Source: Candidatus Woesearchaeota archaeon (GTDB lineage: Archaea > Nanobdellota > Nanobdellia > Woesearchaeales > GW2011-AR4). Taken from it: a stretch of 64,000 nt of DNA. Of this stretch, positions 22,826-47,587 are shown piece by piece; the first letter of the stretch is position 1; every line of letters starts with the position of its first letter. A model generated the notes under the pieces. The model was not told the DNA's origin. It worked only from the letters and a program-made list of their open reading frames with translations, and did no database searches. Position numbers and translations under genes: made by a program. Location: NCBI GenBank assembly GCA_018303625.1, contig JAGVXV010000010.1:13411-77410 (forward strand). The letters are read 5' to 3'.

Positions 22826-23105
22826 TAAGCGGGAGGACGCGCTTGAAAATGGGCAGGATCCTCGCTATCAGTTAACCCTGAGCTTTTCTTGGCCCTGTTT
22901 TCTGTAAGCACCGATGCCAAAGGTTAAGGCTGCTTCCTTCCGGACCTGACCTATTTCCCAAAAACACCAGCCAAACAGGACAAAGCCTCATTGTCGAGCC
23001 CAAGACTGATAGTTTTGGAAAGTGCCTCTTTTCCAGCTTCACCCTGTGTAAAGCGTATTCACAGTTACAGGAGAGCGCTAACCTCCCAGCAAAGTCCTCC
23101 CATAA
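22826..23105 (-). ncRNA. ffs: Signal recognition particle RNA (7S/SRP RNA), approximate ends
   Basis: The minus strand contains 'GGTCAGGTCCGGAAGGAAGCAGCC', identical to the universally conserved helix-8 (domain IV) segment of 4.5S/7S RNA. The 5' 'GGGAGGAC' pairs with the 3' 'GTCCTCCC'. An oligo-T run follows the 3' end. The island is GC-rich with no plausible ORF. Confidence 0.8.
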
Positions 23106-31501: not shown

Positions 31502-34108
31502 TTATTGCCTTAAATCTTTTTTTATAAAATCATAAATCTGAGGGAACTTTCCAATATCAAGTAGCTGTTCATGTAAAACTTTAAGGCTGGAACAGCTGCC
31601 ATTCACATAAAAGTTTTCTGCATACGGCAATTCTGCATTTGCCCTTGTCACAATTCCGTCGCCATCTTCGCCGCCAGTGTTGCATCCTGTTCCGACAACC
31701 ACATATAATTTTGCACTTTTTGGGGTTTTCGACGGGTCATTTAGCTTTTTTATGAAGATGCTGTCTTTAGCCATGTCGCCACACTCCTTATTTTCACCCA
31801 ATATGGGGCAAAAACCGCTTACAGCTCCGGAAATGCCTTTGTTAGGCGTCCCAAACATTATCAGCTTGTGGACGCTTTGTTCCCCGAATATCTGCATATA
31901 GCTTCTTGCCACAAGACCTCCCATGGAATTAGAGAAGATTATCACTTTTTCCCTTCCTGTCCTGAACTTCAGAAGGTCTACAAGCTCTTTTAGCCTTAAA
32001 GCGTATGTTTCTATATTTTCACTTTTTTGCTGGGACACAACATAGCCCCCAATATCATAATAGCTTACAAGATAATAGCTGCCCTTAACGGAAATCGGCT
32101 TTGAGGACAAGCCCCATTCTCCCCTGTTTACTTCAGAATAGTTGGAAACAGGGGTTATTGTCCCGGCGCTTAAATAGCCGTCTTCCTCAAGCCTTGATAT
32201 TAATTTGTTGAAAGCGTCCAAGGAATAATCCGGAGAATTGTCGCTGTTCAATGCGTGGCCATGAATGAAAAGTATAGGGTACAAGGCCGGGTCTTTTCTG
32301 CAGGATTCCTCCTGGCAGCATGGCCTGCATTCCCCAAAAATACAGCATACGGGGTAATTATCCGACAGAGATACGTCAATTCTCGAGCTGAAGTTTTTCT
32401 TTTCAGGGATTGGAACCTTGCCAATGCTGGTTCTGTTCCCGTAGTATTCCGAAAGATTTAATTCCGGGGTTATGGCGCAGTAATCATTATAGTATTTTAT
32501 TGACTGATTTGTCAGGTTCAGGCTTATCAATGATAAAATCTCGCTTTCTGAAAATTCCCCGTAGTCTGAATCCTCTATCAAAGGCGTTTCATTGTAAGCC
32601 GAAAGCATCCCAAGAAGCATATTCAGGGAAAAATTCTGGTTTTGGCTTCCCGGGCTCAGGCTTTTTATTTCATTATAATGCCTGTTTTTTATCATGCCGA
32701 TTTTTTTATTTTTTATTTTCTCTGCTATGGCAATAACTTCCCTCATGTTTACGTAATTTTTCATCAGGTTGCCTGATATGTTATTTTCAATTGATTGCAG
32801 TCCTTTTATTTCATTGAAAGAGCTGCAAAATGAAGCTATCTTTCCGTCGTCGACATCAAAGAATTCATCTTTTATGGAAGAAAGGTTTCTCCTATCGAGG
32901 CATATTCCCTTAATATCGCAAAGAATATCCTCTTCAAGGGCTGAGTAATAAAATCCGGCAGTATATGCTTCTATAAATCTGTCTTTTGATCTAGCTGTTA
33001 TCCCGCTGAATGATTTTTCGGCTTCGTTGATGCTCTTTTCAACATAGCTGTAGTTGGAAAATGTGTTTTGCCTTATTTCATTTTTTATCTTTTCAACTGC
33101 CCTTAAAGCCGAATTATGCTCCTCAAGGATTTTTCCCGAGCCGGGCCTTAGGCCGAATAACAGGGTTTGGTTCAGTTCCCTCAGATTGGCCTCTATTTCA
33201 TCAGCCTCCTCTGCCAAGGTATTGTGCATCTCAAGTACAGACTGCATCCTGCTGCTGACGCTGCCTAGTTCTTCCGATATTTCCTGGAGCCTTGCTTCGT
33301 AGCCCTGGCCGTAAAGCTCGGAAAGGTATGGGTAATTCTGGCTCGACCATACTCTCCTAAGATTTTCTGTTTCCAGCACAATGCTGCTGTATTTCTGGTT
33401 CAGGATATCTTTTTCCCTGCTTATCTCGTTGAGGTTTATATTGAATGCCAATTCAAAAAACTGGCCATTAAGCTCCTGAATCCCTATATCAATTTCTGAA
33501 ATTCTCTTAAGCACTTTTTCCAGGTCTTCCTTCAGGCTGCTTTTCAAAAACCTCTCATATGCCGACAGGTCATAATTTAATGTGACAAAGGATGCTTTTT
33601 GCCTCTTTAACTCGTCTGTCAGGCAATACCACGTCCTTATATTATTGCAGGCTACACTAAACCTGTATATTTTCTGGCCGCTTCCAACGGAATCTATTGA
33701 CAGGTTATAGCCTTTTGAAAACCTTTTCTGGGTGCCTGAGCCTACAGAATAGCCCTCTTCAATAAGTCTTGATGAGGATATGTCATAAAACTCGTAGCTG
33801 CAGCGGCTGTCGCAAAAAAAGCTGTTTTTCACTTCCACATTGAATGTAACGCCGGGTGTTTCATTATAAAGTACGCTCAATGAGATGTCATTGGGATTGA
33901 GGCTTATTGAAAGGTCCTCTGTTATCAAAAAATGCAGATTCAGCCACAGCCTATAGCCGCCGAACAATGCAAATATGGCAAGAGCTATGACAACGGCTAT
34001 AACGGCCTTTTTGTGCTTGCCAAGAAAATCCTTCATATTACTTAGCTTATTTTTTGAGGTTTTCTCTTTCTTTGGGCTGTTTTCTTCTGTTTCTTCTTTT
34101 TCCGGCAT
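31502..34108 (-). CDS. Large membrane-anchored extracellular protein with C-terminal alpha/beta-hydrolase (PGAP1/lipase-like) domain
   Basis: 868 aa. The N-terminus has a single TM ('AVIAVVIALAIFALFGGY'). A long coiled-coil/Asn-rich middle region has many N-x-S/T sites. The C-terminal roughly 280 aa carry 'ILFIHGHALNSD' and a nucleophile elbow 'IIFSNSMGGLVARSY' (GxSxG). Confidence 0.55.
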   Translation of the reverse strand: MPEKEETEENSPKKEKTSKNKLSNMKDFLGKHKKAVIAVVIALAIFALFGGYRLWLNLHFLITEDLSISLNPNDISLSVLYNETPGVTFNVEVKNSFFCDSRCSYEFYDISSSRLIEEGYSVGSGTQKRFSKGYNLSIDSVGSGQKIYRFSVACNNIRTWYCLTDELKRQKASFVTLNYDLSAYERFLKSSLKEDLEKVLKRISEIDIGIQELNGQFFELAFNINLNEISREKDILNQKYSSIVLETENLRRVWSSQNYPYLSELYGQGYEARLQEISEELGSVSSRMQSVLEMHNTLAEEADEIEANLRELNQTLLFGLRPGSGKILEEHNSALRAVEKIKNEIRQNTFSNYSYVEKSINEAEKSFSGITARSKDRFIEAYTAGFYYSALEEDILCDIKGICLDRRNLSSIKDEFFDVDDGKIASFCSSFNEIKGLQSIENNISGNLMKNYVNMREVIAIAEKIKNKKIGMIKNRHYNEIKSLSPGSQNQNFSLNMLLGMLSAYNETPLIEDSDYGEFSESEILSLISLNLTNQSIKYYNDYCAITPELNLSEYYGNRTSIGKVPIPEKKNFSSRIDVSLSDNYPVCCIFGECRPCCQEESCRKDPALYPILFIHGHALNSDNSPDYSLDAFNKLISRLEEDGYLSAGTITPVSNYSEVNRGEWGLSSKPISVKGSYYLVSYYDIGGYVVSQQKSENIETYALRLKELVDLLKFRTGREKVIIFSNSMGGLVARSYMQIFGEQSVHKLIMFGTPNKGISGAVSGFCPILGENKECGDMAKDSIFIKKLNDPSKTPKSAKLYVVVGTGCNTGGEDGDGIVTRANAELPYAENFYVNGSCSSLKVLHEQLLDIGKFPQIYDFIKKDLRQ

Positions 34109-36075: not shown

Positions 36076-36822
36076 TCAGTAAATTCCGAAATCTTCGCAG
36101 TACCTTACACCAGTATATCTAGTTGACAACGGATCAACCCGCTTTACGCAACAAAAAGGGTTAGGGGAACCTGGGGGATCGTAAGCACAGCGCAAAATAT
36201 AGCTCCTGCTGAGGTTGTTATTGTTTTCATTAGATTCGCTTATAACTGAAGTTGCGTCAGCTATGCCGTAGAAAGTAAACTTTTGTTCAGTTGGTGTTCC
36301 ATCAAGAAGAGGCAATGGTATAGGAATGTTCATGAAATGAACAGTGTATACCTCTCCAGTACCTGCCTGTAGTGGATTTACTATAATTCCTATACTTATT
36401 CCACCTGCCAAATTATAATAAGTTGTTGAAGCACTTTGAAACGTATTAGTATCCTTAGTATATAATACAAACGCTGCTGATTTAACCCCACCTAGCGAAT
36501 CACCTTGCACACCTGCCTCAAGAATAGACTCTTTGGCTCTAGTACCACCAACATTGCCGACGCCTATACCTACCTGCATACTTGCTAATAGCGTAGAATT
36601 TTCTCCATATTTATACTCAATAGATTGCAAATTTGACCCATAAGGCACCAAATCAGGCTTTTTTGAGCCGCCGCCACGAACAGCGCTTCCGGTCCCAGAA
36701 GGAATCCCGTTGGAAATTATCATCACAATTGCAATTAAAACAATAAAAGAAATTAGAATTATAGTATTATTTTTTGGTTTAATTCCTTTGCTATCTTTTT
36801 TGCTGCTCTCTTTTTTCGGCAT
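36076..36822 (-). CDS. secreted protein, hypothetical (Gly/Thr-rich, Cys-containing C-terminus)
   Basis: 248 aa. A K-rich cytoplasmic N-terminus is followed by a single TM ('IILISFIVLIAIVMIIS'). The extracellular part has 'CAYDPPGSPNPFCCVKRV...YCEDFG'. Codon usage is AT3-rich. Confidence 0.4.
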   Translation of the reverse strand: MPKKESSKKDSKGIKPKNNTIILISFIVLIAIVMIISNGIPSGTGSAVRGGGSKKPDLVPYGSNLQSIEYKYGENSTLLASMQVGIGVGNVGGTRAKESILEAGVQGDSLGGVKSAAFVLYTKDTNTFQSASTTYYNLAGGISIGIIVNPLQAGTGEVYTVHFMNIPIPLPLLDGTPTEQKFTFYGIADATSVISESNENNNNLSRSYILRCAYDPPGSPNPFCCVKRVDPLSTRYTGVRYCEDFGIY

Positions 36823-36905
36823 TTTTATTGAAATTTTATATGCTTATGATATTATTGGCTGAAATCTTTATAAATATTTCCATTTGAATTTAGATATTTT
36901 TAAGT

Positions 36906-36982
36906 ATGCCCCTACTGGGTAGCGGAAATCATAGATTTCCTGAACCCATCGGGTCATTCGTTTTGCTCATGCCCCTACTGGG
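36906..36982. repeat. Direct repeat of the tRNA-Arg 3'-terminal 14 nt (att-like), enclosing a short hairpin
   Basis: 'ATGCCCCTACTGGG' occurs at about 36906-36919 and again at about 36969-36982, which is the actual 3' end of tRNA-Arg on the minus strand. The roughly 50-nt spacer contains the hairpin GGAAATC-ATA-GATTTCC. Confidence 0.45.
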
Positions 36983-37042
36983 AATCGAACCCAGGTCTTA
37001 AGGTCCGCAACCTCATATTCTGATCCACTAAACTATAGGGGC
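36970..37042 (-). tRNA. tRNA-Arg (GCG), intronless
   Basis: 73 nt on the minus strand. Acceptor GCCCCTA/TAGGGGC. Anticodon stem TGAGG/CCTTA with loop TTGCGGA. T-arm CTGGG-TTCGATT-CCCAG. Confidence 0.8.
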
Positions 37043-37158
37043 GCAACATAACTAATTCAGGATGGTTTATAAACATTATTGCGCATAAATAATTAATTAC
37101 TTTATAATAGTGACAAAATAGAAAGATTTAAATATGAGTATGATGGAATATTATTAGT

Positions 37159-38214
37159 ATGGTAGAGGTAGGAAGAATAGTCAGAGATTTGGAAACTGTG
37201 AGAGAGCATTTACTTAGAACTGGAGCTAGGCCAGAAGTTGTTGACGCATTTAACAGAACTTTTCTACTTGACACTTTAAACACAGATGTCCTATCCAGAT
37301 TTGCATTTTATGGGCTACTGAGACGAACTATAGAAAATTATATTGAAGGGAATTTAATAATAGAACGCCAGGATAGAAGAAAACTGAATGGTGGCGATAG
37401 AGTCAATCTTAGGGGTAAAGCCAAAGAAGATAGAAGAGCCGAAAGAATAGAGGTTACAAGTGACATGATAGATGTAGCTATGTTTGATTTAGGCCGTTTT
37501 AAATTTTATAATGACGAATTTGGGGAATTAGTTGGAGATTTGCTTCTAGCAGTTGTAGGCGGAATGATTAGCAAGAACCTAAGGCCGTATGACGCCACCA
37601 CAGCACCAGTGGATTATGAATCTCTTTTGAGAAACATAGGCAGTGGGGTTGCAAGTAGGGAAAAAGGTGATGAATATAGGGCAATGATAGTCGGGACAAG
37701 ACAGCATAAGACAATAATTAACCGTATTCTTAAAAATGTCAGAAAGGAAGCCATAGAAGAGGCTTATAAACAAGTTAAAGGAAATCCAGAATTGATTAAT
37801 TTGTTTAGAGGTGATTCTTACGCAGAAAAAGAAAGTAACCTAGAGAAGTTTTACAGAGCACAAAAGACTATGCCAATAGTGTTAAGGGTAGGGTATGCCA
37901 TACTAAAAGACATTGAAAAAGAAGTTGAAAGAACTGAGCGCGCCAGAGACCCTGAGAACCTAGCTACCCGCTTGATAGTGGCAAGCACGGATACACAAGA
38001 AGCTGTTAAGATGAGCGGTGATTTGGGAAAAGTTTATTCTTATCAAGATTTAAAGAATGGAAAAATTGGGGGTAAAACGACAAGCCACATGCCTCCAAAT
38101 TTAGTTGAGATGGTTCAAAGGTATGGTGGTGAAGTTTTTCACCGTAGAGTTCTTGATGAAATTCGAGCCTCTCATCCTGACGCTTACAGATTGTTAACAA
38201 GAAGAACTGGTTGA
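37159..38214 (+). CDS. hypothetical protein (351 aa), Arg-rich, atypical codon usage
   Basis: A long, clean ORF adjacent to tRNA-Arg. Its codons are strongly AT3-biased (aga, tta, gta, aca) in contrast to core genes. No enzymatic motif is recognised. It ends with a Walker-A-like 'GKIGGKTTS' near the C-terminus. Confidence 0.4.
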   Translation: MVEVGRIVRDLETVREHLLRTGARPEVVDAFNRTFLLDTLNTDVLSRFAFYGLLRRTIENYIEGNLIIERQDRRKLNGGDRVNLRGKAKEDRRAERIEVTSDMIDVAMFDLGRFKFYNDEFGELVGDLLLAVVGGMISKNLRPYDATTAPVDYESLLRNIGSGVASREKGDEYRAMIVGTRQHKTIINRILKNVRKEAIEEAYKQVKGNPELINLFRGDSYAEKESNLEKFYRAQKTMPIVLRVGYAILKDIEKEVERTERARDPENLATRLIVASTDTQEAVKMSGDLGKVYSYQDLKNGKIGGKTTSHMPPNLVEMVQRYGGEVFHRRVLDEIRASHPDAYRLLTRRTG

Positions 38215-38236: not shown

Positions 38237-39787
38237 TCAATAATCCACCAGGCTGATCTGCCCTTTCCTTTTTCCAGATGGAATTTCTTTTATTTCCTCT
38301 CCTACCTGCTTCTTCACATTCAAAGCGACTTTTTCTCCCAGAATCTGCACTAACTTTAAAAAATCTGCCTTCTTAACATCCCCGATATCCTTGATCTTGT
38401 TGTTGTACAATTTCCTTGCCCTTACTCTTCCAATCTGCTCAAGCCTCAATAAGGGCAGCAATTCCTCTCTGACGCCATACTTCATTCTCAGCCTCAGCTT
38501 CGCAATTTCCCTGATCAGGCTTTGGTAATGCAAAATTCTTGATATTTCCTCAGAGGAGTAAAGCAGCCAGTCGGCATTGTCCAGCTTGACCCTTAATTCG
38601 CCAGGCCTTAGGTTGTACTGCTCGAGCAGAAACTCCTCGTCTTTCTCATCGGTCCAGTCGATAAACATCAATGCTGTTTTAATGCTGTTCAAAAAGTCAT
38701 CATATTCGGGCTCGTACATGGAAGGCTCATGCTCAAGCAGAAAACTTTCGTGCTTTATCAATTCCTCCTGGATTTTCTCATTTTCTTTTGCGCCAACCCT
38801 GAGCAAAGGCCTCATTTCAAGTGTATGGCATGCCATCTGCAAAAGGGAAAATTCATTTATTTTTTTGTCAGAGGCATTCCTCAGGCAGCTTATGATGAAA
38901 AAAGCAGTCAAGGGGTCAATGTAAAGCTCTGCAACTCTTTTGCCCATTACTGTCGCCCTTATCTCCTCATTTTCAAATTTATCAGCATCCCTGAATTCAT
39001 TTTTCTTCCTGGCTATAAATTCCCATTCTTCCAGCAAATCCAGCATTTTTGATATTATCATTTCAAGCTTTCCAAAATCCCTGAACTGGTAGGCCCAGAA
39101 TGTCCTCTCAAAAAAATCCATTATCTGGCTTTTGTTTCTTGTGAAATCAGCCGCAATCAGGCTTAATAGGTATGTCCTTAACACAGGCTCGACAGCAAGC
39201 TTCGAGTAAATATCCTCAGGCTCGCCCAAAATGTACATCTCGTAAATCTTGTTTTTTTCACCTTCGCTGCCTGCAATTGCAATTGCCTCTCCTGTTTTGT
39301 CAAATTTAGGCCTGCCAGCCCTTCCTGACTGCTGCAGATATTCCAGAACAGGTATCCATGCCAATCCTCTTGGGCTGTATCTCCTCAAATCCTTAATAAT
39401 GACCCTGAATGCCGGAAGATCAACTCCATACGCCAATGTTGGGGTTGCGCAGATAATCTTGATTAAGCCGTTCCTGAAGTTATTTTCAATCAGCTCCCTT
39501 TGCTTTGAAACCAGGCCGGCATGGTGAAAAGCAATTCCTTTTTTTATGCAGTAAGCCAGCCTTTCGCACTGCTTTGTAGGCCTAGAAAGGGCGTTAAGTA
39601 TGCCGTCAGAAATTCTCTCTAAATCCGCATTGCCCACCTTTATGCTCTTGGCTATTTCCTCAGCGGCTTTTTCAGCGCTCCTCTTGGTATTTGCAAAAAC
39701 TATAGCCTGCTTTCCCAGATTAATCGTGTCCAAAGCCAGGTTTGTAACAGAATTATCGCTATGATTGGGTATTTTTTTATTGCCCAT
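38237..39787 (-). CDS. Hel308/Ski2-like DNA helicase, C-terminal portion only (RecA2, WH, ratchet and HLH domains); N-terminal RecA1 domain absent
   Basis: It begins at the RecA2 domain ('GKQAIVFANTKRSAEKAA', 'AFHHAGL', 'TPTLAYGVDLPA', 'QQSGRAGR' motif VI). The Hel308-type WH/ratchet/HLH C-terminus continues to 'KRKGQISLVDY'. A TAG stop lies 5 codons upstream of the ATG. No Walker A/DEAH is present. Confidence 0.7.
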   Translation of the reverse strand: MGNKKIPNHSDNSVTNLALDTINLGKQAIVFANTKRSAEKAAEEIAKSIKVGNADLERISDGILNALSRPTKQCERLAYCIKKGIAFHHAGLVSKQRELIENNFRNGLIKIICATPTLAYGVDLPAFRVIIKDLRRYSPRGLAWIPVLEYLQQSGRAGRPKFDKTGEAIAIAGSEGEKNKIYEMYILGEPEDIYSKLAVEPVLRTYLLSLIAADFTRNKSQIMDFFERTFWAYQFRDFGKLEMIISKMLDLLEEWEFIARKKNEFRDADKFENEEIRATVMGKRVAELYIDPLTAFFIISCLRNASDKKINEFSLLQMACHTLEMRPLLRVGAKENEKIQEELIKHESFLLEHEPSMYEPEYDDFLNSIKTALMFIDWTDEKDEEFLLEQYNLRPGELRVKLDNADWLLYSSEEISRILHYQSLIREIAKLRLRMKYGVREELLPLLRLEQIGRVRARKLYNNKIKDIGDVKKADFLKLVQILGEKVALNVKKQVGEEIKEIPSGKRKGQISLVDY

Positions 39788-39896
39788 TAAATAAAGAAGC
39801 TATCAGAAATTTATAAAGCTTGTGGATTAAATTATCAGTTAAGAATGTATAACTACTCTATAAAATTGACACAATTCCACATTTTTATTTGATGAA

Positions 39897-41237
39897 TTAA
39901 GAAGTTGGGTCTGATACTCTACCTATAAACAGAATTGTATTATTTTCACGTTCTTGAATTATGAAGATAAAAGGATGGTCTGCACGAAAAATTGGTGTTG
40001 GTGGTGGGATCGATATAATTCCAATAACAACTGCTGTTGCAGCTGCTGCTTCTGTGCCTTCCTCATTCACATCAACAAATGCCTGATGGATAACATCGCT
40101 AATAACAAGGTCTTTTTTTCCATCAATTCCAGAAAAATCCGCTTCTAGTGGATCAAATGATGATAAGATTCCCATTTCTTTAAGATTTTTAGAGAGAAAA
40201 TATTTACTATCAAAAGTAAACCGAGGTATAAAAACATCAACGTTTTGTTCTTTCAACTTGGTAACCCATTCAGTAAATTTAACTGTGGAAAGAGAGCTTT
40301 CAACTTTTTCTAAGTCATCATTTTTTGGAAGTAGGATTATCATCGATAAATTGTTTCCTTCATACAGCAATTCAAGAATCTGCGATTCATCTGTTTCTGC
40401 ATAATTGAATCTTGACTCTGTATACCTCATAATTGGCACTATTACAGTTTTTTCATTATTCACCTTAAATTCTTCATCCTTGGTTTCTTCTTTATCAAAT
40501 TGTACTAGCCAGTTTGCTTTAAAGTAAATTGCATTTGTAAGTACCAATCTTGTCGCGGCATCAAGAACGCCTACTGGAATTAAATCCTTAATCTTATCAT
40601 TAGTTTTATCTTCTACCCATTTATTTATTGTCTGCCGAGCTTCTTCAGTCGCTTTTATGAAATCAACAAGATTAGCGCTTGCATCATAATATTTTTGCAA
40701 TACATTAACATATTCATCTAAAATTCCAAAATCTTTTTGTACCCAAAATGCATTTGCAGTGCTAAGATTATATTTACTGTCCTTGCTATTTATTTTACTG
40801 TTAAGTTCTACATATGACAATCTAAGCAAGCCATAATCCTCTGGAAAATGCAATGTTCTTGCAATCTCATTTGCAGTCTCTCCACGTGCTCCTTCATATG
40901 TCATTGCAAGTGCTGCAGTAATGCTCCATGGAGAGAAAAAGATATTCCCTTCTTCCTCACTTAATTTTGAATAAAGATCAAAAGCAAATTGATTATTAGA
41001 GTCTGAAATGCCACTAAAATTTACTGTAATTGCTTTGTTATCTTTCTTTGCGGGTAATTCATGCTCTATAGATTGATTTTTAGCAGCGGATTCACGTTTC
41101 TCTAGAGGAGCAATTTCTTCATCTTTTTCTGGCAAATTATTAAATATCGCCAAATTAAGAACTACTAGAATACTAACTATAACGATAACTATCCATAAAA
41201 TAGTTAAAATCGTTTTCTTATCCATTTCCTCCAACAT
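39897..41237 (-). CDS. Serpin (serine protease inhibitor), membrane-anchored/secreted
   Basis: An N-terminal TM is followed by a serpin fold. It has the hinge 'NEEGTEAAAATAVVIGIISIPPP', the canonical EEGTEAAAAT inhibitory hinge, and the C-terminal 'FRADHPFIFIIQE...ILFIGRV' serpin signature. Codon usage is AT3-rich. Confidence 0.85.
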   Translation of the reverse strand: MLEEMDKKTILTILWIVIVIVSILVVLNLAIFNNLPEKDEEIAPLEKRESAAKNQSIEHELPAKKDNKAITVNFSGISDSNNQFAFDLYSKLSEEEGNIFFSPWSITAALAMTYEGARGETANEIARTLHFPEDYGLLRLSYVELNSKINSKDSKYNLSTANAFWVQKDFGILDEYVNVLQKYYDASANLVDFIKATEEARQTINKWVEDKTNDKIKDLIPVGVLDAATRLVLTNAIYFKANWLVQFDKEETKDEEFKVNNEKTVIVPIMRYTESRFNYAETDESQILELLYEGNNLSMIILLPKNDDLEKVESSLSTVKFTEWVTKLKEQNVDVFIPRFTFDSKYFLSKNLKEMGILSSFDPLEADFSGIDGKKDLVISDVIHQAFVDVNEEGTEAAAATAVVIGIISIPPPTPIFRADHPFIFIIQERENNTILFIGRVSDPTS

Positions 41238-41343
41238 TAGAATTAATATTACCTTCTTTAAAAACCCTTCGATTAAATCGTCGGGCTTTTAGTCATCAAA
41301 TTATCATTTACTAATAAAGCTGCTTTTCTTATTTTAACTGTAT

Positions 41344-43236
41344 TTAATTAACATCAACAACAAACTCGCGGCTTATTTCCTCAACGCCGTCGCTTACAGT
41401 AACCTTGATTTCCTTTTTGCCTTTTGACGCAAATGTCCTTTTGTGTATCGCAGTTGCATTGTGCTTGTCAAAAAGCCCGAAATCCCAGAGATAAGACAAA
41501 GCATCATTATCAAAATCCCTTGCCGCAACAAACAATGTTACCGGTTCGTTCACTTTAGCTGACAAATCCGTGCTGGAATTGACTATTTCAGGCGCTATAT
41601 TTTTATTGAAAACAGTAATGTTAAGCTCCTGCTCAGCACTATCCTGTCCATCGCTTGCAACAAACCTGACTTTTACGCTTTCTTTTTCTTTGCCTTTGAC
41701 AAAGGAAAAATCCGGCTTGAAAGTAAAAATGCTGCCTTCCAATTCAGCATTTTCCGGCAGATTTTCAGCAGAGAATCCTATTATATCATTGTCAGGATCT
41801 GTTGCCATTAATTCCATTCTAAGAGTTTTGTTTTCAGTTATTTCTGCATTTTTTAATGGCTCAAAGGCTGGAGCCCTGTTGACATTCTCAACACTGACAG
41901 TAACAAATTCCGAAGCAGTGTAAAACCCGTCAGTGCCCGTGACTTTTACGATATAAATGCCTGCATCATCAAAATTTGTCTTATAAGTATTTTTTGCCAT
42001 CCATCCTGAATATGCAAATGAAACCCTGTCGTTGTCAGGGTCGTTGTAGCGCGGCTCTATTTTAACTTCCTCATTTTCATCGATAGTGATTGGTGCAATA
42101 GGCTCCAAGGTAAAAGGCCTGTTTGCGTCCCTTACAGTTATTTTTACGTCTTTTTCCGCTTCATTTCCATTGCTTTCCGCCATAAACTTGATATTTACGC
42201 TTTTGCTTAGCAAATGAAACTTGTCGGCGATATAATCAACAAGATTTTCCTTTTTTACAAAATTGAAATCAGGCTTCCATCTGAAAGTATTTCCATCCAG
42301 TACAGCCCCATCCGGCATGTTCTGCGCAGAAAAGATTATGTCATCATTATCAGGGTCCTGAACATTCAGCTCTATGGCTGCTTCTTCATTTTCATTTATT
42401 GCAATATCCTTTAAGTCAACAAAAAAAGGAGGCCTGTCATTGTTGCTTACAGTCACTTTGACCTGCTTGCTTCCTGAAAATCCTTTTCCATCTGCTTTTA
42501 TCGTTACCTTATAGGTGCCTGCATCATCATAGCTCGTCTGCCATTTGTTGTTCTGCCCGATTGGCTCTGATATAGTGTAAATTAGGCCGTATTTTTTAAA
42601 ATCAGGAAGGTTTAAGCTTGCAATTTCTGTTTCCCGGACTGCAATATCCTGTATAGAATCCAGAACATTTTCCATGCTGACATCATTTACCTCTACAATC
42701 CATTCGTTGCTTACACTATGGAGTTTATCTGAGACAACAATCTTGACATTATGCGTTCCGGCATCTTCGTAATCAGTTAAGTAATTTATAGTCTTGTCAT
42801 TGCTCACCAAAACATCATCAAGAAACCATTCATAGGCTAGAGTGTCTTTATTCAGGTCAGAGGCTGAAACATCAAAGCTTATGCTTTCTCCCTCATTAAT
42901 TGCCACTTTGTTTTCTTTCGGGGCAAAGCTTTCAATTGCCGGCTTTTCCTCCTTTTTACTGACAACCAGCAAAACCTCCTGGGAACTGCTCAATTCTCCA
43001 TCGCTTACAGTAATTGTGACTTTATATTCGCCTGCATCACCATAAGTTGTCTGCCACTCGCCATTTTCATTTAAAGGCTCGCTGTATGAATAAACAAGAT
43101 TCTGCGCATCAGGGTCTGTGGCTTTCGGCTGCAGGCTTACCAGTCCGGTTTCATTATAGGCAAAGGTTGTTATGCCGGAAGAGATATTAGCAACTAATAA
43201 TAAAACTAGCAATAGCAAAATTATTTTTTCCCCCAT
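41344..43236 (-). CDS. Secreted protein with about 6 PKD-like Ig-fold repeats
   Basis: A signal peptide is followed by repeats of roughly 90 aa, each with 'Y..DAG.Y.V.V.V.D' PKD signatures (for example 'TTYGDAGEYKVTITVSDGELSS', 'TDYEDAGTHNVKIVVSDKLHS'). Confidence 0.6.
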   Translation of the reverse strand: MGEKIILLLLVLLLVANISSGITTFAYNETGLVSLQPKATDPDAQNLVYSYSEPLNENGEWQTTYGDAGEYKVTITVSDGELSSSQEVLLVVSKKEEKPAIESFAPKENKVAINEGESISFDVSASDLNKDTLAYEWFLDDVLVSNDKTINYLTDYEDAGTHNVKIVVSDKLHSVSNEWIVEVNDVSMENVLDSIQDIAVRETEIASLNLPDFKKYGLIYTISEPIGQNNKWQTSYDDAGTYKVTIKADGKGFSGSKQVKVTVSNNDRPPFFVDLKDIAINENEEAAIELNVQDPDNDDIIFSAQNMPDGAVLDGNTFRWKPDFNFVKKENLVDYIADKFHLLSKSVNIKFMAESNGNEAEKDVKITVRDANRPFTLEPIAPITIDENEEVKIEPRYNDPDNDRVSFAYSGWMAKNTYKTNFDDAGIYIVKVTGTDGFYTASEFVTVSVENVNRAPAFEPLKNAEITENKTLRMELMATDPDNDIIGFSAENLPENAELEGSIFTFKPDFSFVKGKEKESVKVRFVASDGQDSAEQELNITVFNKNIAPEIVNSSTDLSAKVNEPVTLFVAARDFDNDALSYLWDFGLFDKHNATAIHKRTFASKGKKEIKVTVSDGVEEISREFVVDVN

Positions 43237-43264
43237 TTTTTACCAAAAAGAAAATTAATTAAAA

Positions 43265-44278
43265 TTATTCCTGCACTATGTCTATTATCTGCGGAGGCCT
43301 GTTTACATTCTCTACTATGACGGCAACTTCCTGGCTTGCTTCATCAGTGCCGTCTGATGCCGTTACTTTTACAGTATACGTTCCTGAATCATCATAGGTT
43401 GTCTCCCAAACGCCGTCATTTCCTACAGGATCAGATATTGTAAATGCAATTTCATCTCCGTCCAAATCTGCCGCTTTAGGCCCTATGGTTACTGTTTCTG
43501 TCTCTTTAACTTTTATAGCTGGGATTTCCTCCAGTACCGGCTTCCTGTTTACATTATTTACAGTGACAGACCATAAGTTTTCTGTCGATAGCTTGCCATC
43601 TGAAACAGTGACTTTTACTGTGTGGCTTCCGGCATCATCATAAGTGATTTCATATTTGAAGTAATCGCTGCCTGAAACCTCACTGCCGTCCAGTTTCCAT
43701 TCATAGCTTATTTTATCCTTGTTTAAATCAACGGCTTTAACGTTAAATTCAATTGCTTTTGTTTCACTTGTGATTGCGGTCTTTTCATGAGGCATAAAGC
43801 TCTCGATTACAGGCGCTTCTTCCTTTTTATTTACAATTATCAAAACTTCTTTTGAGCTTGTCAGTTCGCCGTCTGAAACAGTCACAGTAACGGTATATTC
43901 GCCAGCATCGCCGTAAGTTGTCTTCCATTCGCCTTTTTCGTTTAACGGGCTGCTGAATGCAAACTCTAATTCATCCTTATCAGGGTCCTGGGCTTTAGGA
44001 GTTAAGCTTACAATGTCTGTTTCCTGCACTATAATAACAGTCGCTTCCCCTACTTCTTCCCTGACTTCCTTCACTTCCTCTTTTTCAGCTTCCTTTTCTA
44101 CAGGAGCCTCTTCTTTTATTAGTTCTCCTATGGTTATGTTTTCCTCAGGAATCTTGACTACCTCCCCAACAGGAGCCGGCGGCGCATATAGTGTATTGTA
44201 GACGTCGCAGGCTGACAAGAAAACAGCGAATATAACAAGAGTTGCAATGAGCGCTTTTAATTTCATAATACCCCTCAT
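43265..44278 (-). CDS. Secreted/lipobox-anchored protein with 3 PKD-like repeats (paralog of the upstream gene)
   Basis: A signal peptide ends 'FLSAC' (lipobox-like). The repeats 'TTYGDAGEYTVTVTVSDGELTS', 'ITYDDAGSHTVKVTVSDGKLST' and 'TTYDDSGTYTVKVTASDGTDEA' are closely related to the 41344-43236 repeats. Confidence 0.6.
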   Translation of the reverse strand: MRGIMKLKALIATLVIFAVFLSACDVYNTLYAPPAPVGEVVKIPEENITIGELIKEEAPVEKEAEKEEVKEVREEVGEATVIIVQETDIVSLTPKAQDPDKDELEFAFSSPLNEKGEWKTTYGDAGEYTVTVTVSDGELTSSKEVLIIVNKKEEAPVIESFMPHEKTAITSETKAIEFNVKAVDLNKDKISYEWKLDGSEVSGSDYFKYEITYDDAGSHTVKVTVSDGKLSTENLWSVTVNNVNRKPVLEEIPAIKVKETETVTIGPKAADLDGDEIAFTISDPVGNDGVWETTYDDSGTYTVKVTASDGTDEASQEVAVIVENVNRPPQIIDIVQE

Positions 44279-44362: not shown

Positions 44363-44490
44363 TGGGCCTGCCAGGATTTGAACCTGGGACCATTCTCGGC
44401 TTATTGGCTCTCGATGTCTAACAGCTGGTTATCAGTTTCGCCGCCTCTTCTGGAGACTCGAGCATTCTAACCAGACTGAACTACAGGCCC
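44363..44490 (-). tRNA. tRNA, 128 nt, with a roughly 36-nt anticodon-loop intron and extra nucleotides in the variable region; anticodon probably CTC (Glu) but uncertain
   Basis: Minus strand. Acceptor GGGCCTG/CAGGCCC with A73. An intact D-arm GTTC-AGTCTGGTTA-GAAT. Anticodon stem CTCGA/TCGAG enclosing 43 nt. T-arm CCAGG-TTCAAAT-CCTGG preceded by 22 nt. Confidence 0.55.
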
Positions 44491-44533: not shown

Positions 44534-44637
44534 CGCCCCTGACCAGACTCGAACTGGTGATCTTACGGTTACAGCGCAAAGCTAACAGCCGTACGCTCTA
44601 CCTATTGCTCCACTCATAGTGTCTAAGCTACAGGGGC
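44534..44637 (-). tRNA. tRNA-Asn (GTT) with two introns (D-loop about 20 nt; anticodon loop about 13 nt)
   Basis: Minus strand. Acceptor GCCCCTG/CAGGGGC with G73. D-stem GCTT/GAGC with an interrupted D-loop 'AG|intron|GGTA'. Anticodon stem TACGG/CCGTA with loop CTGTTA|intron|A. T-arm ACCAG-TTCGAGT-CTGGT. Confidence 0.6.
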
Positions 44638-45290: not shown

Positions 45291-45548
45291 ATGTACGAGA
45301 TTTATACTGCAAATAGCAGAACAGAAAAAAGGCTCAAAGATCATATAAAAGAAAGGCAGGATATTCTCAAAAAGCTTCAAAGATTAAAGCTTTCTCCAAG
45401 AACGGAAATAGGTGCGCATCCCCTGCATGGAAAGCTGAGCGGAAAATGGAGCTGCTGGCTTGGCTCCAATATCAGGATGATTTACAGCATTGATGACAAT
45501 AACAGGCAGATAATCGTAGAAGCAATAGGAACCCATCAGGTTTATTAA
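45291..45548 (+). CDS. YoeB/Txe-like (RelE/ParE superfamily) toxin
   Basis: 85 aa. 'GAHPLHGKLSGKWSCWLGSNIRMIYSIDDNNRQIIVEAIGTHQVY' matches the YoeB C-terminal catalytic region (LSGxWSRRI...RLVY...H.Y). Confidence 0.65.
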   Translation: MYEIYTANSRTEKRLKDHIKERQDILKKLQRLKLSPRTEIGAHPLHGKLSGKWSCWLGSNIRMIYSIDDNNRQIIVEAIGTHQVY

Positions 45549-45556
45549 ACTTTCAG

Positions 45557-45694
45557 CTTTTTTATTTTGCCCCGGGCAATGTTCTTTTCGCTCTCCAAAA
45601 TCTGTTTCATCATATCAGAATTTTGGAGTATCTCTATTGTCTCTTTCATGCCTTCATACTCTTTTTTTGATATGAGTATCATGTCTTGCTTCAT
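45557..45694 (-). pseudogene. YefM/Phd-like antitoxin fragment (C-terminal half only), convergent to the toxin; coordinates approximate (within a few nt)
   Basis: Minus-strand 45-aa ORF 'MKQDMILISKKEYEGMKETIEILQNSDMMKQILESEKNIARGKIKKLKV'. It aligns with the C-terminal half of YefM ('[39 protein letters not shown]'). An in-frame TAA lies just upstream, so the N-terminal DNA-binding half is absent. Confidence 0.45.
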
Positions 45695-45837
45695 AAGGAA
45701 ATCATAATATACCTGCCTTTATATAATTTTCGCATGTTTAATAGCCACGCCTTTTCCGAATTTGATTATTTGTGGGGTTAAAAATTTATGGGTTAGTATT
45801 TACCCCACTGGTGCGCTACGCAACACCAGTGGAAAGC

Positions 45838-46038
45838 TCAGCTTTTAATAATGAATGTATCACAACAATTTTTTTCAATAATACCTAATTTTTGGTTGCA
45901 GTCATTACAACAAATTATTTTAAGTTTAGCAGGTCCTCCTATGTTCATAGGTATGAAGTGATCATAAGTCCATTTATTATCATTAAAGTTTTTATCGCAA
46001 TATACGCAATAGTATTCCTTAATATTTTTTGAAACCAT
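45838..46038 (-). CDS. Small HNH-family endonuclease-like zinc-finger protein
   Basis: 'YCVYCDKNFNDNKWTYDHFIPMNIGG...CCNDCNQKLG' has the CxxC...DH...N...CxxC arrangement of HNH nucleases. About 66 aa from the internal ATG. Confidence 0.5.
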   Translation of the reverse strand: MVSKNIKEYYCVYCDKNFNDNKWTYDHFIPMNIGGPAKLKIICCNDCNQKLGIIEKNCCDTFIIKS

Positions 46039-46048
46039 ATTATTTTTC

Positions 46049-47587
46049 CTAAACCTCCACTTCCCTCTTAACCACAACCTTCCCAGTAATTGACCTCAAC
46101 ATATGCCCAGTTATCTCTAAATCATAGAATTTCTTTAGCTCTAATCTTCCCTTAACCCCAACAATTATCGGATATGTTCCAAACTGCCTGCAGAATGTTG
46201 TGTTGCCGTCATAGATTTCCGCATAACAATTGGTTAAAACTGTTCCGTTTGGAATTACTCTCTGCAGCATTGGCCAGTCTATTTTCTGCCTTATTTCATT
46301 GCGCCATTTCCAGTATAATTTTTTATTTTTTCTTAAAAACTTGTCCCTGCCTTTGTTATATAATGAAGTGCCTTCAAATATTGCAACCTGCCTTATGTTA
46401 ATCCTCCTTAGCATCAATCCTTCATCATAAATTCTTTTCAACCATTTCATGTTCTCTTCATGGGTTTTCTTTGTTTCATTGCGAAGCCCGAAAATTATAT
46501 TGACTCCGGGCAAAAACCTGGGCATTCCGTCAGGGCCTCTTTCAGCCCCGTATTTGTTCAGTATCTTAACCGCTTCATAAGCAATCTGAGGAGGAGTATT
46601 CAATGTATTTGCCTTCACAACCTCTAAATCAAAAGACTCAACTCCAAAAGCGGCAATATTTCCCGAAGTGCAGTACTTAACAATTGCTTTTGTTATTTCA
46701 AAATCACTTTTCTTGTCCATAACAACCTTGACAGGATTTACATTATCAATATGCAAAACCTTAATATCAGGGCATTTGCCATTTATTTCTTTCAGTAATT
46801 CTGCGGCATAAGGCAAAGTATAGAAGCAGGTCTGCTTTCCAAGCCTAAAATAACGAGCGCCAAGATTGTAAAACTCAATAACCTCCTGCAAAACATCCTC
46901 TTTATCGCGAAACTCAACTCTGTTTTTCAGAGGCTCTGTGCAAAAGCTGCACTTTCCTATGTCGCAGCCGTGCCCAGTCTCAATCTCTATCATGCGATGA
47001 TCAGGAATCTGCTTTATGATTGAAGCCCCTTTTATTGAATGATTCTTCACATCAGAATATTTGAAATTAAACATTGAATAATCAACTTTGTCAAAAGCGC
47101 CTAAATCAGCTTTTTCAAAAAACTTGCCGCCAAAAAGCTGCGTTCCGAAAACAGCAGGTCCTGTCAAAATTTTCTCGCATCTTAAATCCTTAATCATTGG
47201 AATTATCTCATTTAGGGTGCCAGGCACTGCAGAAAGATATTTTCCCGGAACATGAACACCAAGGACAACAATCAAGGTACCTGTTTCAGCAAGAATTTTC
47301 CCAATATTTTTATAATTAATTGTCAGGTTATAAGTTGTAATGTCTGTTTTCTGCGACGGCCTTATTGCTCTTATTTCTGAATTGTTTTTTTTCCACAACC
47401 TCAAATCATCAATAGTTAAATAACAAGCATCTTCATTCAGGTATCCTGCTATGTACCTAGGATACGTGCCAAGATAAGGCGGAACTCCAAGCCCGGCCGG
47501 CTCATCAGTATAGCAGTCAAGTATAGTATATCCCATAGCTTGGAGTAATGCTTTTTCATTTAAAAAGGTATTTGAAAAAGAAAACAT
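46049..47587 (-). CDS. Radical SAM domain protein with N-terminal extension and C-terminal TRAM-like region
   Basis: 512 aa. It has a radical SAM cluster 'IETGHGCDIGKCSFC' (Cx4Cx2C). The C-terminal 'GVKGRLELKKFYDLEITGHMLRSITGKVVVKREVEV' resembles a TRAM/OB domain. Confidence 0.65.
   Translation of the reverse strand: MFSFSNTFLNEKALLQAMGYTILDCYTDEPAGLGVPPYLGTYPRYIAGYLNEDACYLTIDDLRLWKKNNSEIRAIRPSQKTDITTYNLTINYKNIGKILAETGTLIVVLGVHVPGKYLSAVPGTLNEIIPMIKDLRCEKILTGPAVFGTQLFGGKFFEKADLGAFDKVDYSMFNFKYSDVKNHSIKGASIIKQIPDHRMIEIETGHGCDIGKCSFCTEPLKNRVEFRDKEDVLQEVIEFYNLGARYFRLGKQTCFYTLPYAAELLKEINGKCPDIKVLHIDNVNPVKVVMDKKSDFEITKAIVKYCTSGNIAAFGVESFDLEVVKANTLNTPPQIAYEAVKILNKYGAERGPDGMPRFLPGVNIIFGLRNETKKTHEENMKWLKRIYDEGLMLRRINIRQVAIFEGTSLYNKGRDKFLRKNKKLYWKWRNEIRQKIDWPMLQRVIPNGTVLTNCYAEIYDGNTTFCRQFGTYPIIVGVKGRLELKKFYDLEITGHMLRSITGKVVVKREVEV

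What the first reader, a model, noticed from the sequence alone, without database searches (positions are those of the whole stretch)
39897..44278. Membrane-anchored inhibitory serpin next to two paralogous PKD-repeat surface proteins
Serpins are sporadic in archaea. This one has a canonical inhibitory hinge (EEGTEAAAAT) and AT3-rich codon usage, suggesting acquisition. It is followed by two secreted proteins built from 6 and 3 closely related PKD domains. Together these make a candidate surface/interaction module for defence against host or partner proteases, or for adhesion.
Basis: partly seen in the sequence, partly recalled or inferred. Interest (0 to 1): 0.55.

Follow-up and report, generated by a model that had tools for sequence, protein, structure and literature searches.

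The report
Acquired tethered serpin beside core surface proteins
A Woesearchaeota (DPANN) archaeon has picked up a single membrane-anchored protease-inhibitor (serpin) gene, which landed between a conserved pair of Ig-like surface-protein genes and a helicase gene; the neighbours are not part of a serpin module, so this is a real but fairly ordinary case of gene acquisition.

Summary
The three ORFs are real and lie at the stated coordinates. They encode a 446-aa serpin (Pfam 2.6e-123) with hinge EEGTEAAAAT, an N-terminal TM helix and very low GC3 (0.22 against a window mean of 0.44). The other two are exported Ig-like (PKD/Big_9) repeat proteins with 7 domains (not 6) and 3 domains.

The "module" reading fails. 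Six independent relatives' loci have PKD3xx–PKD630–helicase in the same order but no serpin. In four of them only a 39–40-nt promoter spacer separates PKD630 from the helicase. That spacer is still present in the window directly upstream of the helicase. The serpin therefore sits in a 1.5-kb single-gene insertion (39827–41343).

PKD630 belongs to a length-conserved family found across Woesearchaeota. Four other serpin loci have no PKD neighbours. The closest serpin (84% identity) lies in an AT-rich contig next to a large S8 subtilase.

N-terminal anchors or lipoboxes and the same hinge are the norm across the 120 nearest homologues (CPR bacteria, DPANN and other archaea, Actinobacteria). The donor is unresolved.

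Most likely function: a surface-tethered suicide inhibitor (P1 Ile408–P1' Ser409) of extracellular subtilisin- or elastase-like serine proteases.

Verdict: acquisition supported, module not supported. New member of a known kind, modest interest.

The parts
39897..41237 (-). Serpin ORF, 446 aa. The probable true start is Met5 at 41225, giving 442 aa.
   Evidence: ORF list. Pfam Serpin 2.6e-123, full length. PDB serpins at 1e-85. AlphaFold pLDDT 87.4. M5 is nearly invariant in the family alignment and GGAGG lies upstream.
41142..41219 (-). N-terminal transmembrane signal-anchor (residues 7-32, KKTILTILWIVIVIVSILVVLNLAIF).
   Evidence: KD19 hydropathy maximum 3.2. Modelled as a helix over residues 7-32. 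Coordinates checked.
41016..41141 (-). Charged, disordered linker between the anchor and the serpin body (residues 33-74).
   Evidence: pLDDT below 50 for residues 35-73. This region and the anchor are not homologous to the 84%-identical relative, which has a lipobox signal instead.
39990..40064 (-). Reactive-centre loop, P17-P8' (EEGTEAAAATAVVIGII|SIPPPTPI). The predicted scissile bond is Ile408-Ser409 (nt 40011-40016).
   Evidence: Same length as the SerpinB3 RCL in the alignment. Counted and coordinates checked. Seven of 13 positions over 404-416 differ from the 84% relative.
39827..41343 (-). Lineage-specific 1.5-kb insertion: the serpin gene, a 106-nt upstream region with a TATA-like TTTTTAAA, and about 70 nt downstream.
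   Evidence: In the relatives the PKD630 stop codon is followed directly by the 39-40-nt helicase promoter spacer. Nucleotide homology to the L009 serpin ends at the stop codon.
39788..39826 (-). Conserved helicase promoter spacer (CAAGCTTTATAAATTTCT...). In relatives this is the whole PKD630-to-helicase spacer.
   Evidence: Alignment A3 with L017, L018, L019, L007, L004 and L010 (sequences).
41344..43236 (-). PKD630: a Sec signal peptide plus seven Ig-like (PKD/Big_9/cadherin-like) domains (about residues 22-94, 98-185, 196-265, 276-370, 381-451, 462-544, 548-630). It has no C-terminal anchor. Six domains carry D-x-D/N-x-D motifs.
   Evidence: Pfam Big_9, PKD_4 and PKD above cut-off. Repeat scan. 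AlphaFold pLDDT 86.5 with seven beta-sandwiches. Foldseek hits to contactin, titin and (proto)cadherin ectodomains. Homologue family. Motifs.
43265..44278 (-). PKD337: a lipobox signal (FLSAC|DVYNTLY), a Glu/Lys-rich linker and three Ig-like domains (residues 84-160, 165-251, 252-333) that are colinear with domains 1-3 of PKD630. The probable start is Met5 at 44266.
   Evidence: Pfam. BLASTP 49% identity to PKD630 residues 23-275. Repeat scan. Lipobox conserved in the L004, L007, L017 and L018 homologues.
38237..39787 (-). 516-aa helicase (Helicase_C plus archaeal helicase domain 4 plus HhH). It is the conserved downstream neighbour used as the synteny anchor and is not part of the insertion.
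   Evidence: Pfam. 46-79% identical homologues of the same length in all relatives.

Best explanation
The window comes from a Woesearchaeota (DPANN) archaeon.

**What was acquired.** A single 1.5-kb segment carrying only a serpin gene was inserted between the stop codon of a conserved surface-protein gene (PKD630) and the promoter of the next conserved gene (a 516-aa helicase). This part is shown.

**What the gene encodes.**
- The product is a canonical inhibitory serpin.
- It has an N-terminal signal-anchor helix, with Lys-Lys on the cytoplasmic side.
- A disordered linker of about 40 residues follows.
- I infer that these hold the serpin body on the outer face of the membrane.

**How it would work (inferred from established serpin mechanism).**
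- A target serine protease cleaves the exposed reactive-centre loop at Ile408-Ser409.
- The loop then inserts into beta-sheet A as strand 4A.
- The protease is dragged along, deformed and trapped as a covalent acyl-enzyme.

**Likely targets (inferred).**
- Hydrophobic P1 Ile and P4 Ile suit proteases with hydrophobic S1 and S4 pockets, meaning subtilisin-like (S8) or elastase-like enzymes.
- The 84%-identical closest relative is encoded immediately upstream of a large secreted S8 subtilase.
- No protease gene was recognised in the 64-kb window. The targets may therefore be exogenous (host or neighbour proteases) or an endogenous subtilase encoded elsewhere.

**The PKD proteins.** The two PKD/Ig-like proteins are vertically inherited Woesearchaeota envelope proteins: a lipobox-anchored 3-domain protein and a secreted 7-domain paralogue. 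Their adjacency to the serpin is an accident of the insertion site.
For: **Identity of the gene**
- Full-length Pfam serpin match.
- P17-P9 EEGTEAAAA matches the inhibitory consensus ExGTEAAAA quoted in PMC8233489.
- The RCL has the same length as that of SerpinB3.
- The AlphaFold model (pLDDT 87.4) has a TM helix at 7-32 and a disordered segment at 35-73. Residues 394-407 are modelled as an inserted strand.
- The model superposes on cleaved serpins at 1.1-1.3 Å.

**Purifying selection**
- Against the 84% relative, dN is 0.071, dS 0.73 and dN/dS 0.10.
- Changes are concentrated in the RCL.

**Insertion**
- Six relatives' loci have PKD3xx-PKD630-helicase without the serpin.
- The 39-nt TATA spacer is conserved and retained in the window.

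**Foreign composition**
- The window serpin has GC3 0.221 (z -2.7).
- The L009 copy has GC3 0.217 in a 31.6% GC contig.

**Protease link**
- In L009 a Peptidase_S8 gene (2.3e-42) lies 199 nt downstream of the serpin.
- Archaeal serpins Tk-serpin and Pnserpin inhibit subtilisin- and chymotrypsin-like proteases (PMC8233489).

**Independence from the PKD genes**
- Four other serpin loci lack PKD neighbours.
- PKD630 homologues are widespread in Woesearchaeota.
Against: - No biochemical data exist. P1 is assigned by alignment only, and bacterial serpins such as miropin can use other RCL sites.
- The subtilase adjacency rests on a single 5.2-kb contig. Three other homologue loci show no protease next to the serpin.
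- No integrase, transposase or convincing flanking repeat explains how the segment arrived. The only flanking repeat is a 21-nt, 81% match, which may be chance.
- The donor lineage is unresolved. The sister group of the window+L009 pair changes between CPR, archaeal and actinobacterial sequences in NJ bootstraps (46, 63 and 79 of 200).
- Same-strand adjacency to exported proteins does not exclude a functional relationship gained secondarily.
- Only 64 kb of the genome was seen.
Confidence: 0.75

Rival explanations
1. The first reader's module: the serpin and the two PKD proteins are one functional surface unit. For example, the serpin shields these adhesin-like proteins from host proteases, and the genes are co-acquired or co-regulated.
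For: All three genes lie on the same strand with short spacers (28 and 106 nt), and all three products are exported or tethered.
Against: - The PKD pair occurs without the serpin in six relatives' loci, directly abutting the helicase.
- The serpin's homologues occur without PKD neighbours in four loci.
- Serpin GC3 is 0.22 whereas the PKD genes have 0.38.
- The serpin has its own TATA-like element.
Confidence: 0.1
2. The serpin is ancestral at this locus and was lost in the relatives, that is, vertical inheritance with deletions.
For: Serpins do occur in other DPANN and other archaea (Nanoarchaeota, Halobacteriota, Methanocellales). The PKD630-helicase junction is variable in L004 and L010.
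Against: - It would need several independent, exact deletions that each restore the same 39-40-nt spacer in L007, L017, L018 and L019.
- The GC3 anomaly equals that of an AT-rich foreign copy.
- The nearest homologue is in a different context.
- No serpin remnants were found by tblastn in any relative.
Confidence: 0.04
3. The serpin controls an endogenous secreted subtilase encoded elsewhere in the same genome, as a self-protection or zymogen-control pair of the kind seen in L009, rather than defending against foreign proteases.
For: The closest relative is paired with an S8 subtilase. Tk-serpin and Pnserpin inhibit endogenous subtilisin-like proteases (PMC8233489). S8 peptidases exist in Woesearchaeota and other DPANN.
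Against: - There is no S8 homologue and no Ser-protease active-site motif in the 64-kb window.
- The inserted segment brought the serpin alone.
- RCL positions P5, P4, P3 and P1 differ from the L009 copy, which suggests a changed target.
Confidence: 0.3
4. The serpin is non-inhibitory (ovalbumin- or chaperone-like) or a decaying passenger gene.
For: No activity data exist. AlphaFold models the loop already inserted.
Against: - The hinge is canonical, with small P14-P9 residues.
- The ORF is intact and identical in at least 24 contigs from several samples.
- dN/dS is 0.10.
- Loop-inserted models are the lowest-energy serpin state and say nothing against a metastable native form.
Confidence: 0.05

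Closest known systems
Prokaryotic 'hub-like' inhibitory serpins (Group S/clade-B-like; e.g. Tk-serpin of Thermococcus kodakarensis, Pnserpin of Pyrobaculum neutrophilum, chloropin, tengpin)
   Same: - Full serpin fold.
- ExGTEAAAA hinge.
- Highest PDB similarity is to clade-B serpins (SerpinB3/B4, LEI), as described for hub-like prokaryotic serpins in PMC8233489.
- N-terminal export or anchor peptides are common in prokaryotic serpins (PMC8233489).
- Likely subtilisin- or chymotrypsin-class targets.
   Different: - P1 is Ile with P1'-P5' SIPPP, whereas most near homologues have Thr or Lys at P1.
- It sits in a DPANN (Woesearchaeota) genome as a recent single-gene insertion.
- No activity has been measured.
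Uncharacterised tethered serpins of Patescibacteria (CPR) and of DPANN and other archaea from environmental metagenomes (e.g. P0010 Nanoarchaeota, P0021 Uhrbacteria, P0048 Yanofskybacteria, P0105 Methanocellales)
   Same: - 51-61% identity.
- Identical hinge.
- N-terminal TM anchor or lipobox.
- Lone genes embedded in unrelated housekeeping contexts.
   Different: - The window serpin and its 84% relative form their own well-supported pair (200/200). The position of that pair within the family is unresolved.
- Its anchor and linker are unrelated in sequence to those of the 84% relative.
Serpin-subtilase gene pair on contig L009 (Logan SRR29093003)
   Same: Serpin core 84% identical at both nucleotide and protein level. 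Same low GC3 (0.22).
   Different: - The L009 serpin has a lipoprotein signal, P1 Thr and a one-residue-shorter P' side.
- It is followed by an S8 subtilase of at least 868 aa.
- The window copy has a TM anchor and P1 Ile.
- The window copy has no adjacent protease.
Multi-Ig (PKD / Big_9 / bacterial cadherin-like) envelope proteins of archaea
   Same: - Sec or lipobox signals.
- Tandem beta-sandwich domains with D-x-D-x-D motifs.
- A beads-on-a-string model resembling cadherin and contactin ectodomains.
   Different: - This is a tightly length-conserved (about 628-631 aa) family of seven-domain homologues.
- It is paired with a lipobox-anchored three-domain paralogue.
- It is specific to Woesearchaeota-type DPANN genomes and syntenic with a helicase gene.
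- Its function is untested.

Membership tests
Serpin superfamily (Pfam PF00079 / MEROPS I4) | Full-length serpin domain and fold | tested here: met
   PF00079 at E 2.6e-123, covering 2-370 of 370 profile positions. PDB serpins at E about 1e-85. AlphaFold core pLDDT above 90. Foldseek TM-score 0.95 (normalised by target length) and rmsd 1.1 Å to 1hle.
Inhibitory serpins | Hinge consensus P17-P9 ExGTEAAAA with small, uncharged P14-P9 residues | tested here: met
   EEGTEAAAA at residues 392-400. Consensus as quoted in PMC8233489.
Inhibitory serpins | Reactive-centre loop of canonical length (17 residues from P17 to P1), with the P' side reaching the conserved F-x-x-D-H-P-F | tested here: met
   Ungapped equal length (32 residues from EEG to HPF) with SerpinB3 in the alignment. 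P1 is Ile408 and P1' is Ser409.
Inhibitory serpins | Stressed-to-relaxed transition with the loop inserting as strand 4A | tested here: inconclusive
   The AlphaFold model has residues 394-407 as an inserted strand and best matches cleaved or latent serpins. This is compatible with insertion competence but is not a measurement of metastability.
Inhibitory serpins | Formation of a covalent, SDS-stable complex with a target protease | not testable with these tools
   Requires biochemistry.
Horizontally acquired island / mobile insertion | Absent from the orthologous site in relatives, with conserved flanks | tested here: met
   Six relatives' loci lack it, and the 39-nt spacer is conserved.
Horizontally acquired island / mobile insertion | Atypical composition | tested here: met
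   GC3 0.221 with z = -2.7, whereas the flanking PKD and helicase genes are normal.
Horizontally acquired island / mobile insertion | Mobility machinery or att/TSD repeats (integrase, transposase, flanking direct repeats, tRNA target) | tested here: not met
   - The 1.5-kb insert has no gene other than the serpin.
- The only flanking repeat is a 21-nt, 81% match.
- The nearby tRNA (44363-44490) lies beyond the conserved PKD genes, not at the insert border.
   None of six PKD-pair loci has a serpin, and none of four other serpin loci has PKD genes.
PKD / bacterial Ig-like (Big_9) repeat proteins | Pfam PKD, PKD_4 or Big_9 matches above gathering score, and tandem beta-sandwich domains | tested here: met
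   - PKD630: Big_9 78.5 bits, PKD_4 73.7 and PKD 57.8.
- PKD337: PKD 55.7, Big_9 52.0 and PKD_4 50.6.
- Seven beta-sandwiches in the PKD630 model.
Lipoprotein-type anchoring (PKD337) | Lipobox [LVI][ASTG][GA]C at the end of the signal peptide, conserved in homologues | tested here: met
   FLSAC in the window. FISAC, MISAC, FLSGC and FLSAC in L004, L007, L017 and L018, each followed by D/E-[VI]-Y-x-T-L-Y. Actual lipidation is not testable here.

The most novel reading that the evidence does not exclude
Membrane- or lipid-tethered inhibitory serpins may be a surface-protection trait exchanged horizontally among ultra-small episymbionts, namely CPR/Patescibacteria bacteria and DPANN archaea. They would shield the symbiont's exposed envelope and attachment proteins from proteases secreted by hosts or neighbours.

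On this reading, the window captures a recent DPANN acquisition whose reactive loop has been retargeted (P1 Thr to Ile) after separation from its original subtilase partner.

The full-text library searched holds no paper dealing with serpins of DPANN or CPR organisms.
Probability: 0.15. Interest if true: 0.5.

Novelty: new member of a known kind. Interest (0 to 1): 0.25.

Why it matters
The locus gives a cleanly delimited example of single-gene horizontal acquisition in a DPANN archaeon. The insertion point can be read to the nucleotide against six relatives.

It also shows that the neighbouring Ig-like proteins are a conserved Woesearchaeota envelope pair, which is worth studying in its own right. 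They are not serpin partners.

For serpin biology, the locus adds a tethered archaeal serpin with an unusual P1 Ile. It also points to a large, uncharacterised family of anchored serpins shared by CPR bacteria and archaea. If such serpins protect episymbiont surfaces from host proteases, that would bear on how these organisms survive attached to other cells. Nothing here tests that idea.

Tried and rejected
- **Donor by phylogeny.** An NJ tree of 115 homologues first placed the window+L009 pair beside the CPR sequences. A 200-replicate bootstrap showed that the sister group is unresolved: CPR-only 46, archaeal-only 63, actinobacterial-only 79, mixed 12. No donor is claimed.
- **Truncated helicase.** I suspected that the 516-aa helicase was cut by the insertion. 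This is rejected, because every relative has the same 516-518-aa gene.
- **Insertion signatures.** I looked for them around the serpin. Only a 21-nt, 81% direct repeat (39826-39846 / 41295-41315) and vague similarity of the upstream spacer to the helicase promoter turned up. I treat both as possible chance.
- **Cognate protease in the window.** tblastn with the L009 subtilase and motif scans for S8 and S1 active sites found nothing. Pfam scans of 24 window ORFs (of 27 proteins scanned in all) found no peptidase family above its curated cut-off. The only peptidase-named hit was a sub-threshold match (18.9 bits against a cut-off of 27) to Hydrolase_4, 'Serine aminopeptidase, S33', in the alpha/beta-hydrolase region of the 868-aa ORF.
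- **tRNA-targeted island.** The intron-bearing tRNA at 44363-44490 lies outside the conserved PKD genes and not at the insert border.
- **Metagenome and genome scans with the helicase** gave few loci (5 and 4). The closer relatives came from looking up PKD630 homologues instead.
- **The sigma-70 promoter/terminator scanner** was not used because the host is archaeal.

Full report
**1. What is there**

The window is archaeal: it carries an archaeal RNase P RNA at 9095-9445 and an archaeal SRP RNA at 22831-23101. Mean GC is about 41%.

- 43265-44278, 337 aa ('PKD337')
- 41344-43236, 630 aa ('PKD630')
- 39897-41237, 446 aa (the serpin)

They are followed by a 516-aa helicase gene at 38237-39787.

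PKD630 is 100% identical to an NCBI protein annotated 'hypothetical protein J4458_02215 [Candidatus Woesearchaeota archaeon]'. The identical serpin is found on at least 24 metagenomic contigs from several samples, always in the same arrangement. The host is therefore a Woesearchaeota-type DPANN archaeon.

**2. The serpin**

Domain and fold:
- Pfam's serpin model matches end to end, at E 2.6e-123.
- The best solved relatives are clade-B serpins (SerpinB3/B4, leukocyte elastase inhibitor) at E about 1e-85. This fits the 'hub-like' prokaryotic serpins described by Spence et al. (PMC8233489).

Reactive-centre loop:
- The hinge EEGTEAAAAT (residues 392-401) matches the inhibitory consensus ExGTEAAAA.
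- The loop has the same length as that of SerpinB3. Counting from both ends gives P1 = Ile408 and P1' = Ser409 (…VVIGII|SIPPP…).

Structure model (built on 69 homologues, mean pLDDT 87.4):
- A helix at residues 7-32.
- A disordered linker at residues 35-73.
- A confident serpin body.
- The loop is modelled already inserted as a strand.
- The model superposes on cleaved serpins at 1.1-1.3 Å. This shows the loop can be accommodated in sheet A. It does not show metastability.

Start codon: the true start is probably Met5. GGAGG lies upstream of it, and that Met is nearly invariant in the family alignment.

**3. The anchor is the family norm**

Among the 120 best homologues (51-61% identity apart from one at 84%), nearly all begin with a hydrophobic signal-anchor or a lipobox, and almost all carry the same EEGTEAAAAT hinge. 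The named members are:
- Patescibacteria/CPR (Uhrbacteria, Yanofskybacteria, Nealsonbacteria, Paceibacterota)
- Nanoarchaeota
- Halobacteriota
- Methanocellales
- Actinobacteria

Spence et al. likewise note that most prokaryotic serpins have N-terminal transport peptides. 'Membrane-anchored inhibitory serpin' is a correct description, but it is not unusual for this family.

**4. The serpin is an insertion, and the PKD genes are not part of it**

I fetched relatives in two ways: through the helicase and through the closest PKD630 homologues.

| Locus | Helicase identity | PKD630 identity | PKD630-to-helicase spacer |
|---|---|---|---|
| L017 | 79% | 67% | 39 nt |
| L018 | 78% | 66% | 39 nt |
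| L019 | 79% | 62% | 39 nt |
| L007 (= L011) | 71% | 50% | 40 nt |
| L004 | 71% | 50% | 1234 nt, other small genes |
| L010 | 71% | 43% (C-terminal 102 aa only) | 516 nt, other small gene |

- All six loci have PKD3xx → PKD630 → helicase in the same order and orientation.
- L017 and L018 also have the radical-SAM gene upstream. L018 and L019 have the DNA ligase downstream.
- None contains a serpin or a serpin remnant.
- The 39-nt spacer carries a conserved TATA-like box (…CA-AAG-TTTATAAATTTCT…). It is still present in the window immediately upstream of the helicase ATG (alignment A3).
- The serpin therefore sits in a 1,517-nt insertion, 39827-41343. The insert brought its own TATA-like element (TTTTTAAA about 30 nt before the annotated ATG) and nothing else.

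**5. Composition agrees with an insertion**

- Serpin GC3 is 0.221, against a mean of 0.44 (sd 0.08) for 57 window genes (z = -2.7).
- The PKD genes (0.38) and the helicase (0.50) are ordinary.

**6. The closest relative**

The closest serpin (P0004, 84%) lies on a 5.2-kb contig (L009) of 31.6% GC, where its GC3 (0.217) is at home.
- Nucleotide homology (84%) runs from about codon 64 to the stop codon and ends there. The N-terminal anchor, the linker and both flanks are unrelated.
- P0004 has a lipoprotein signal instead of a TM anchor.
- The core is under strong purifying selection: dN 0.071, dS 0.73, dN/dS 0.10. Seven of 13 loop positions over 404-416, including P5, P4, P3 and P1, differ.
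- In L009 the serpin is followed 199 nt downstream, on the same strand, by a Peptidase_S8 subtilase of at least 868 aa (Pfam 2.3e-42).
- The best named relatives of that subtilase are Aenigmatarchaeota, Methanoperedenaceae and Diapherotrites. L009 is therefore probably another archaeon, possibly DPANN.

**7. Other serpin contexts and the donor**

- Three other serpin homologues (L014 Nanoarchaeota, L015, L016) sit alone among housekeeping genes, with neither PKD nor subtilase neighbours.
- The window+L009 pair is robust (200/200). Its sister group is unresolved: CPR-only 46, archaeal-only 63, actinobacterial-only 79, mixed 12 of 200 NJ bootstraps.
- An apparent CPR affinity in the first tree should not be trusted. 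I do not name a donor.

**8. The PKD proteins**

PKD630:
- It has a Sec-type signal peptide and seven beta-sandwich domains (repeat scan; AlphaFold pLDDT 86.5).
- Pfam calls the domains PKD, PKD_4, Big_9 and Cadherin_4.
- Foldseek matches multi-Ig and cadherin ectodomains.
- Six of the seven domains carry a D-P/L/F-D/N-x-D/Q motif, and several of these Asp residues are invariant in 71 homologues. Calcium binding is an inference.
- There is no C-terminal anchor.

PKD337:
- It has a lipobox (FLSAC|DVYNTLY) that is conserved in four homologues, then an acidic linker of variable length and three domains.
- These three domains are colinear with domains 1-3 of PKD630 at 49% identity.

The family:
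- PKD630 homologues of almost constant length (about 628-631 aa, 45-67% identity) are numerous. Where named, they come from Woesearchaeota or 'Nanoarchaeota' MAGs.
- This looks like a conserved envelope component of the lineage, not a fast-evolving accessory adhesin.
- One speculation: the anchored three-domain protein holds the secreted seven-domain paralogue at the surface.

**9. Mechanism**

Shown:
- The gene is intact, under purifying selection and of the inhibitory type.
- It is predicted to be N-terminally membrane-anchored, with a flexible linker.

Inferred from the established serpin mechanism:
- A target serine protease cleaves Ile408-Ser409.
- The loop then inserts as strand 4A.
- The enzyme is trapped covalently.

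Inferred targets:
- Hydrophobic P1 and P4 (both Ile) suit subtilisin-like or elastase-like enzymes.
- The subtilase partner in L009, and the published inhibition of subtilisin- and chymotrypsin-like proteases by archaeal Tk-serpin and Pnserpin (PMC8233489), point the same way.
- Whether the protease is foreign or endogenous cannot be decided. No subtilase homologue or Ser-protease active-site motif is present in the window. Pfam scans of 24 window ORFs gave no peptidase family above its curated cut-off; the only peptidase-named hit was a sub-threshold match to Hydrolase_4 ('Serine aminopeptidase, S33') in the alpha/beta-hydrolase region of the 868-aa ORF. Only 64 kb of the genome was seen.

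**10. Comparison with what is known, and verdict**

The serpin meets every sequence-level criterion of an inhibitory serpin. Complex formation is untestable here.

As an 'island', it meets two criteria: absence in relatives and atypical composition. It fails the third, because no mobility genes or clear repeats are present. The proposed serpin+PKD module fails the co-occurrence test outright.

Full-text searches found no paper dealing with serpins of DPANN or CPR organisms. The large tethered-serpin family shared by these groups therefore seems under-described, but this single locus does not establish anything about its ecology.

The acquisition inference is supported and the module inference is not. 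This is a new member of a known kind, of modest interest.

Noticed in passing
window 38237-39787 (-); L004-L008, L017-L019: The Hel308/Ski2-like helicase is only 516 aa (Helicase_C, archaeal domain 4, HhH) and lacks the first RecA domain. The same short form is conserved at 46-79% identity in Woesearchaeota, Micrarchaeota and Aenigmatarchaeota relatives. No ORF with Walker A plus DExH motifs was found in the window, so the gene may be split or a half-helicase.
   Followed up: partly
window 44363-44490 (-) and about 44535-44637 (-): A 128-nt tRNA with a 43-nt insertion in the anticodon region and an 18-nt insertion near the variable region is called by Rfam but missed by ARAGORN. A second tRNA-like sequence just upstream (acceptor GCCCCTG…CAGGGGC, T-arm TTCGAGT) is called by neither tool. 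It is probably a tRNA with non-canonical introns.
   Followed up: partly
L004 8767-10000; L010 311-826: The PKD630-helicase junction is a recurrent insertion site.
- L004 carries 1.2 kb of small ORFs that gave no significant Pfam match (RelE-like by eye only).
- L004 also has an inner duplicate (9366-9416) of the helicase promoter and its first five codons.
- That duplicate resembles the L010 promoter more than L004's own current one.
- L010 carries a 516-nt insert with a small charged ORF.
   Followed up: partly
L009 2631-5234 (+): The 84%-identical serpin on this AT-rich contig is paired with a large secreted S8 subtilase (at least 868 aa, with a C-terminal Ig-like domain). A small Excalibur-domain protein and an HNH-like ORF lie upstream.
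   Followed up: partly
window 36076-38214: There is a 351-aa protein with a weak GGDEF/palm-domain match (GC3 0.29) and a 248-aa protein with a borderline CARDB match (GC3 0.30). They flank tRNA-Arg (36970-37042) and lie between the helicase and the DNA ligase. L018 and L019 have different small genes there, so this stretch also looks lineage-specific.
   Followed up: partly
window 45291-46077: A YafQ/RelE-like toxin gene (85 aa) and an HNH endonuclease gene (79 aa) sit between the FKBP and radical-SAM genes. At the corresponding place L017 has a HEPN/nucleotidyltransferase pair instead. This is another variable spot carrying small selfish-type genes.
   Followed up: no
window 53381-54010 (-): This 209-aa ORF has the lowest GC3 in the window (0.157, z -3.5) and no Pfam match. 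It may be another foreign gene.
   Followed up: no
window 31502-34108 (-): This 868-aa protein has only weak alpha/beta-hydrolase (lipase/thioesterase-like) matches in its C-terminal third. The rest is unassigned.
   Followed up: no
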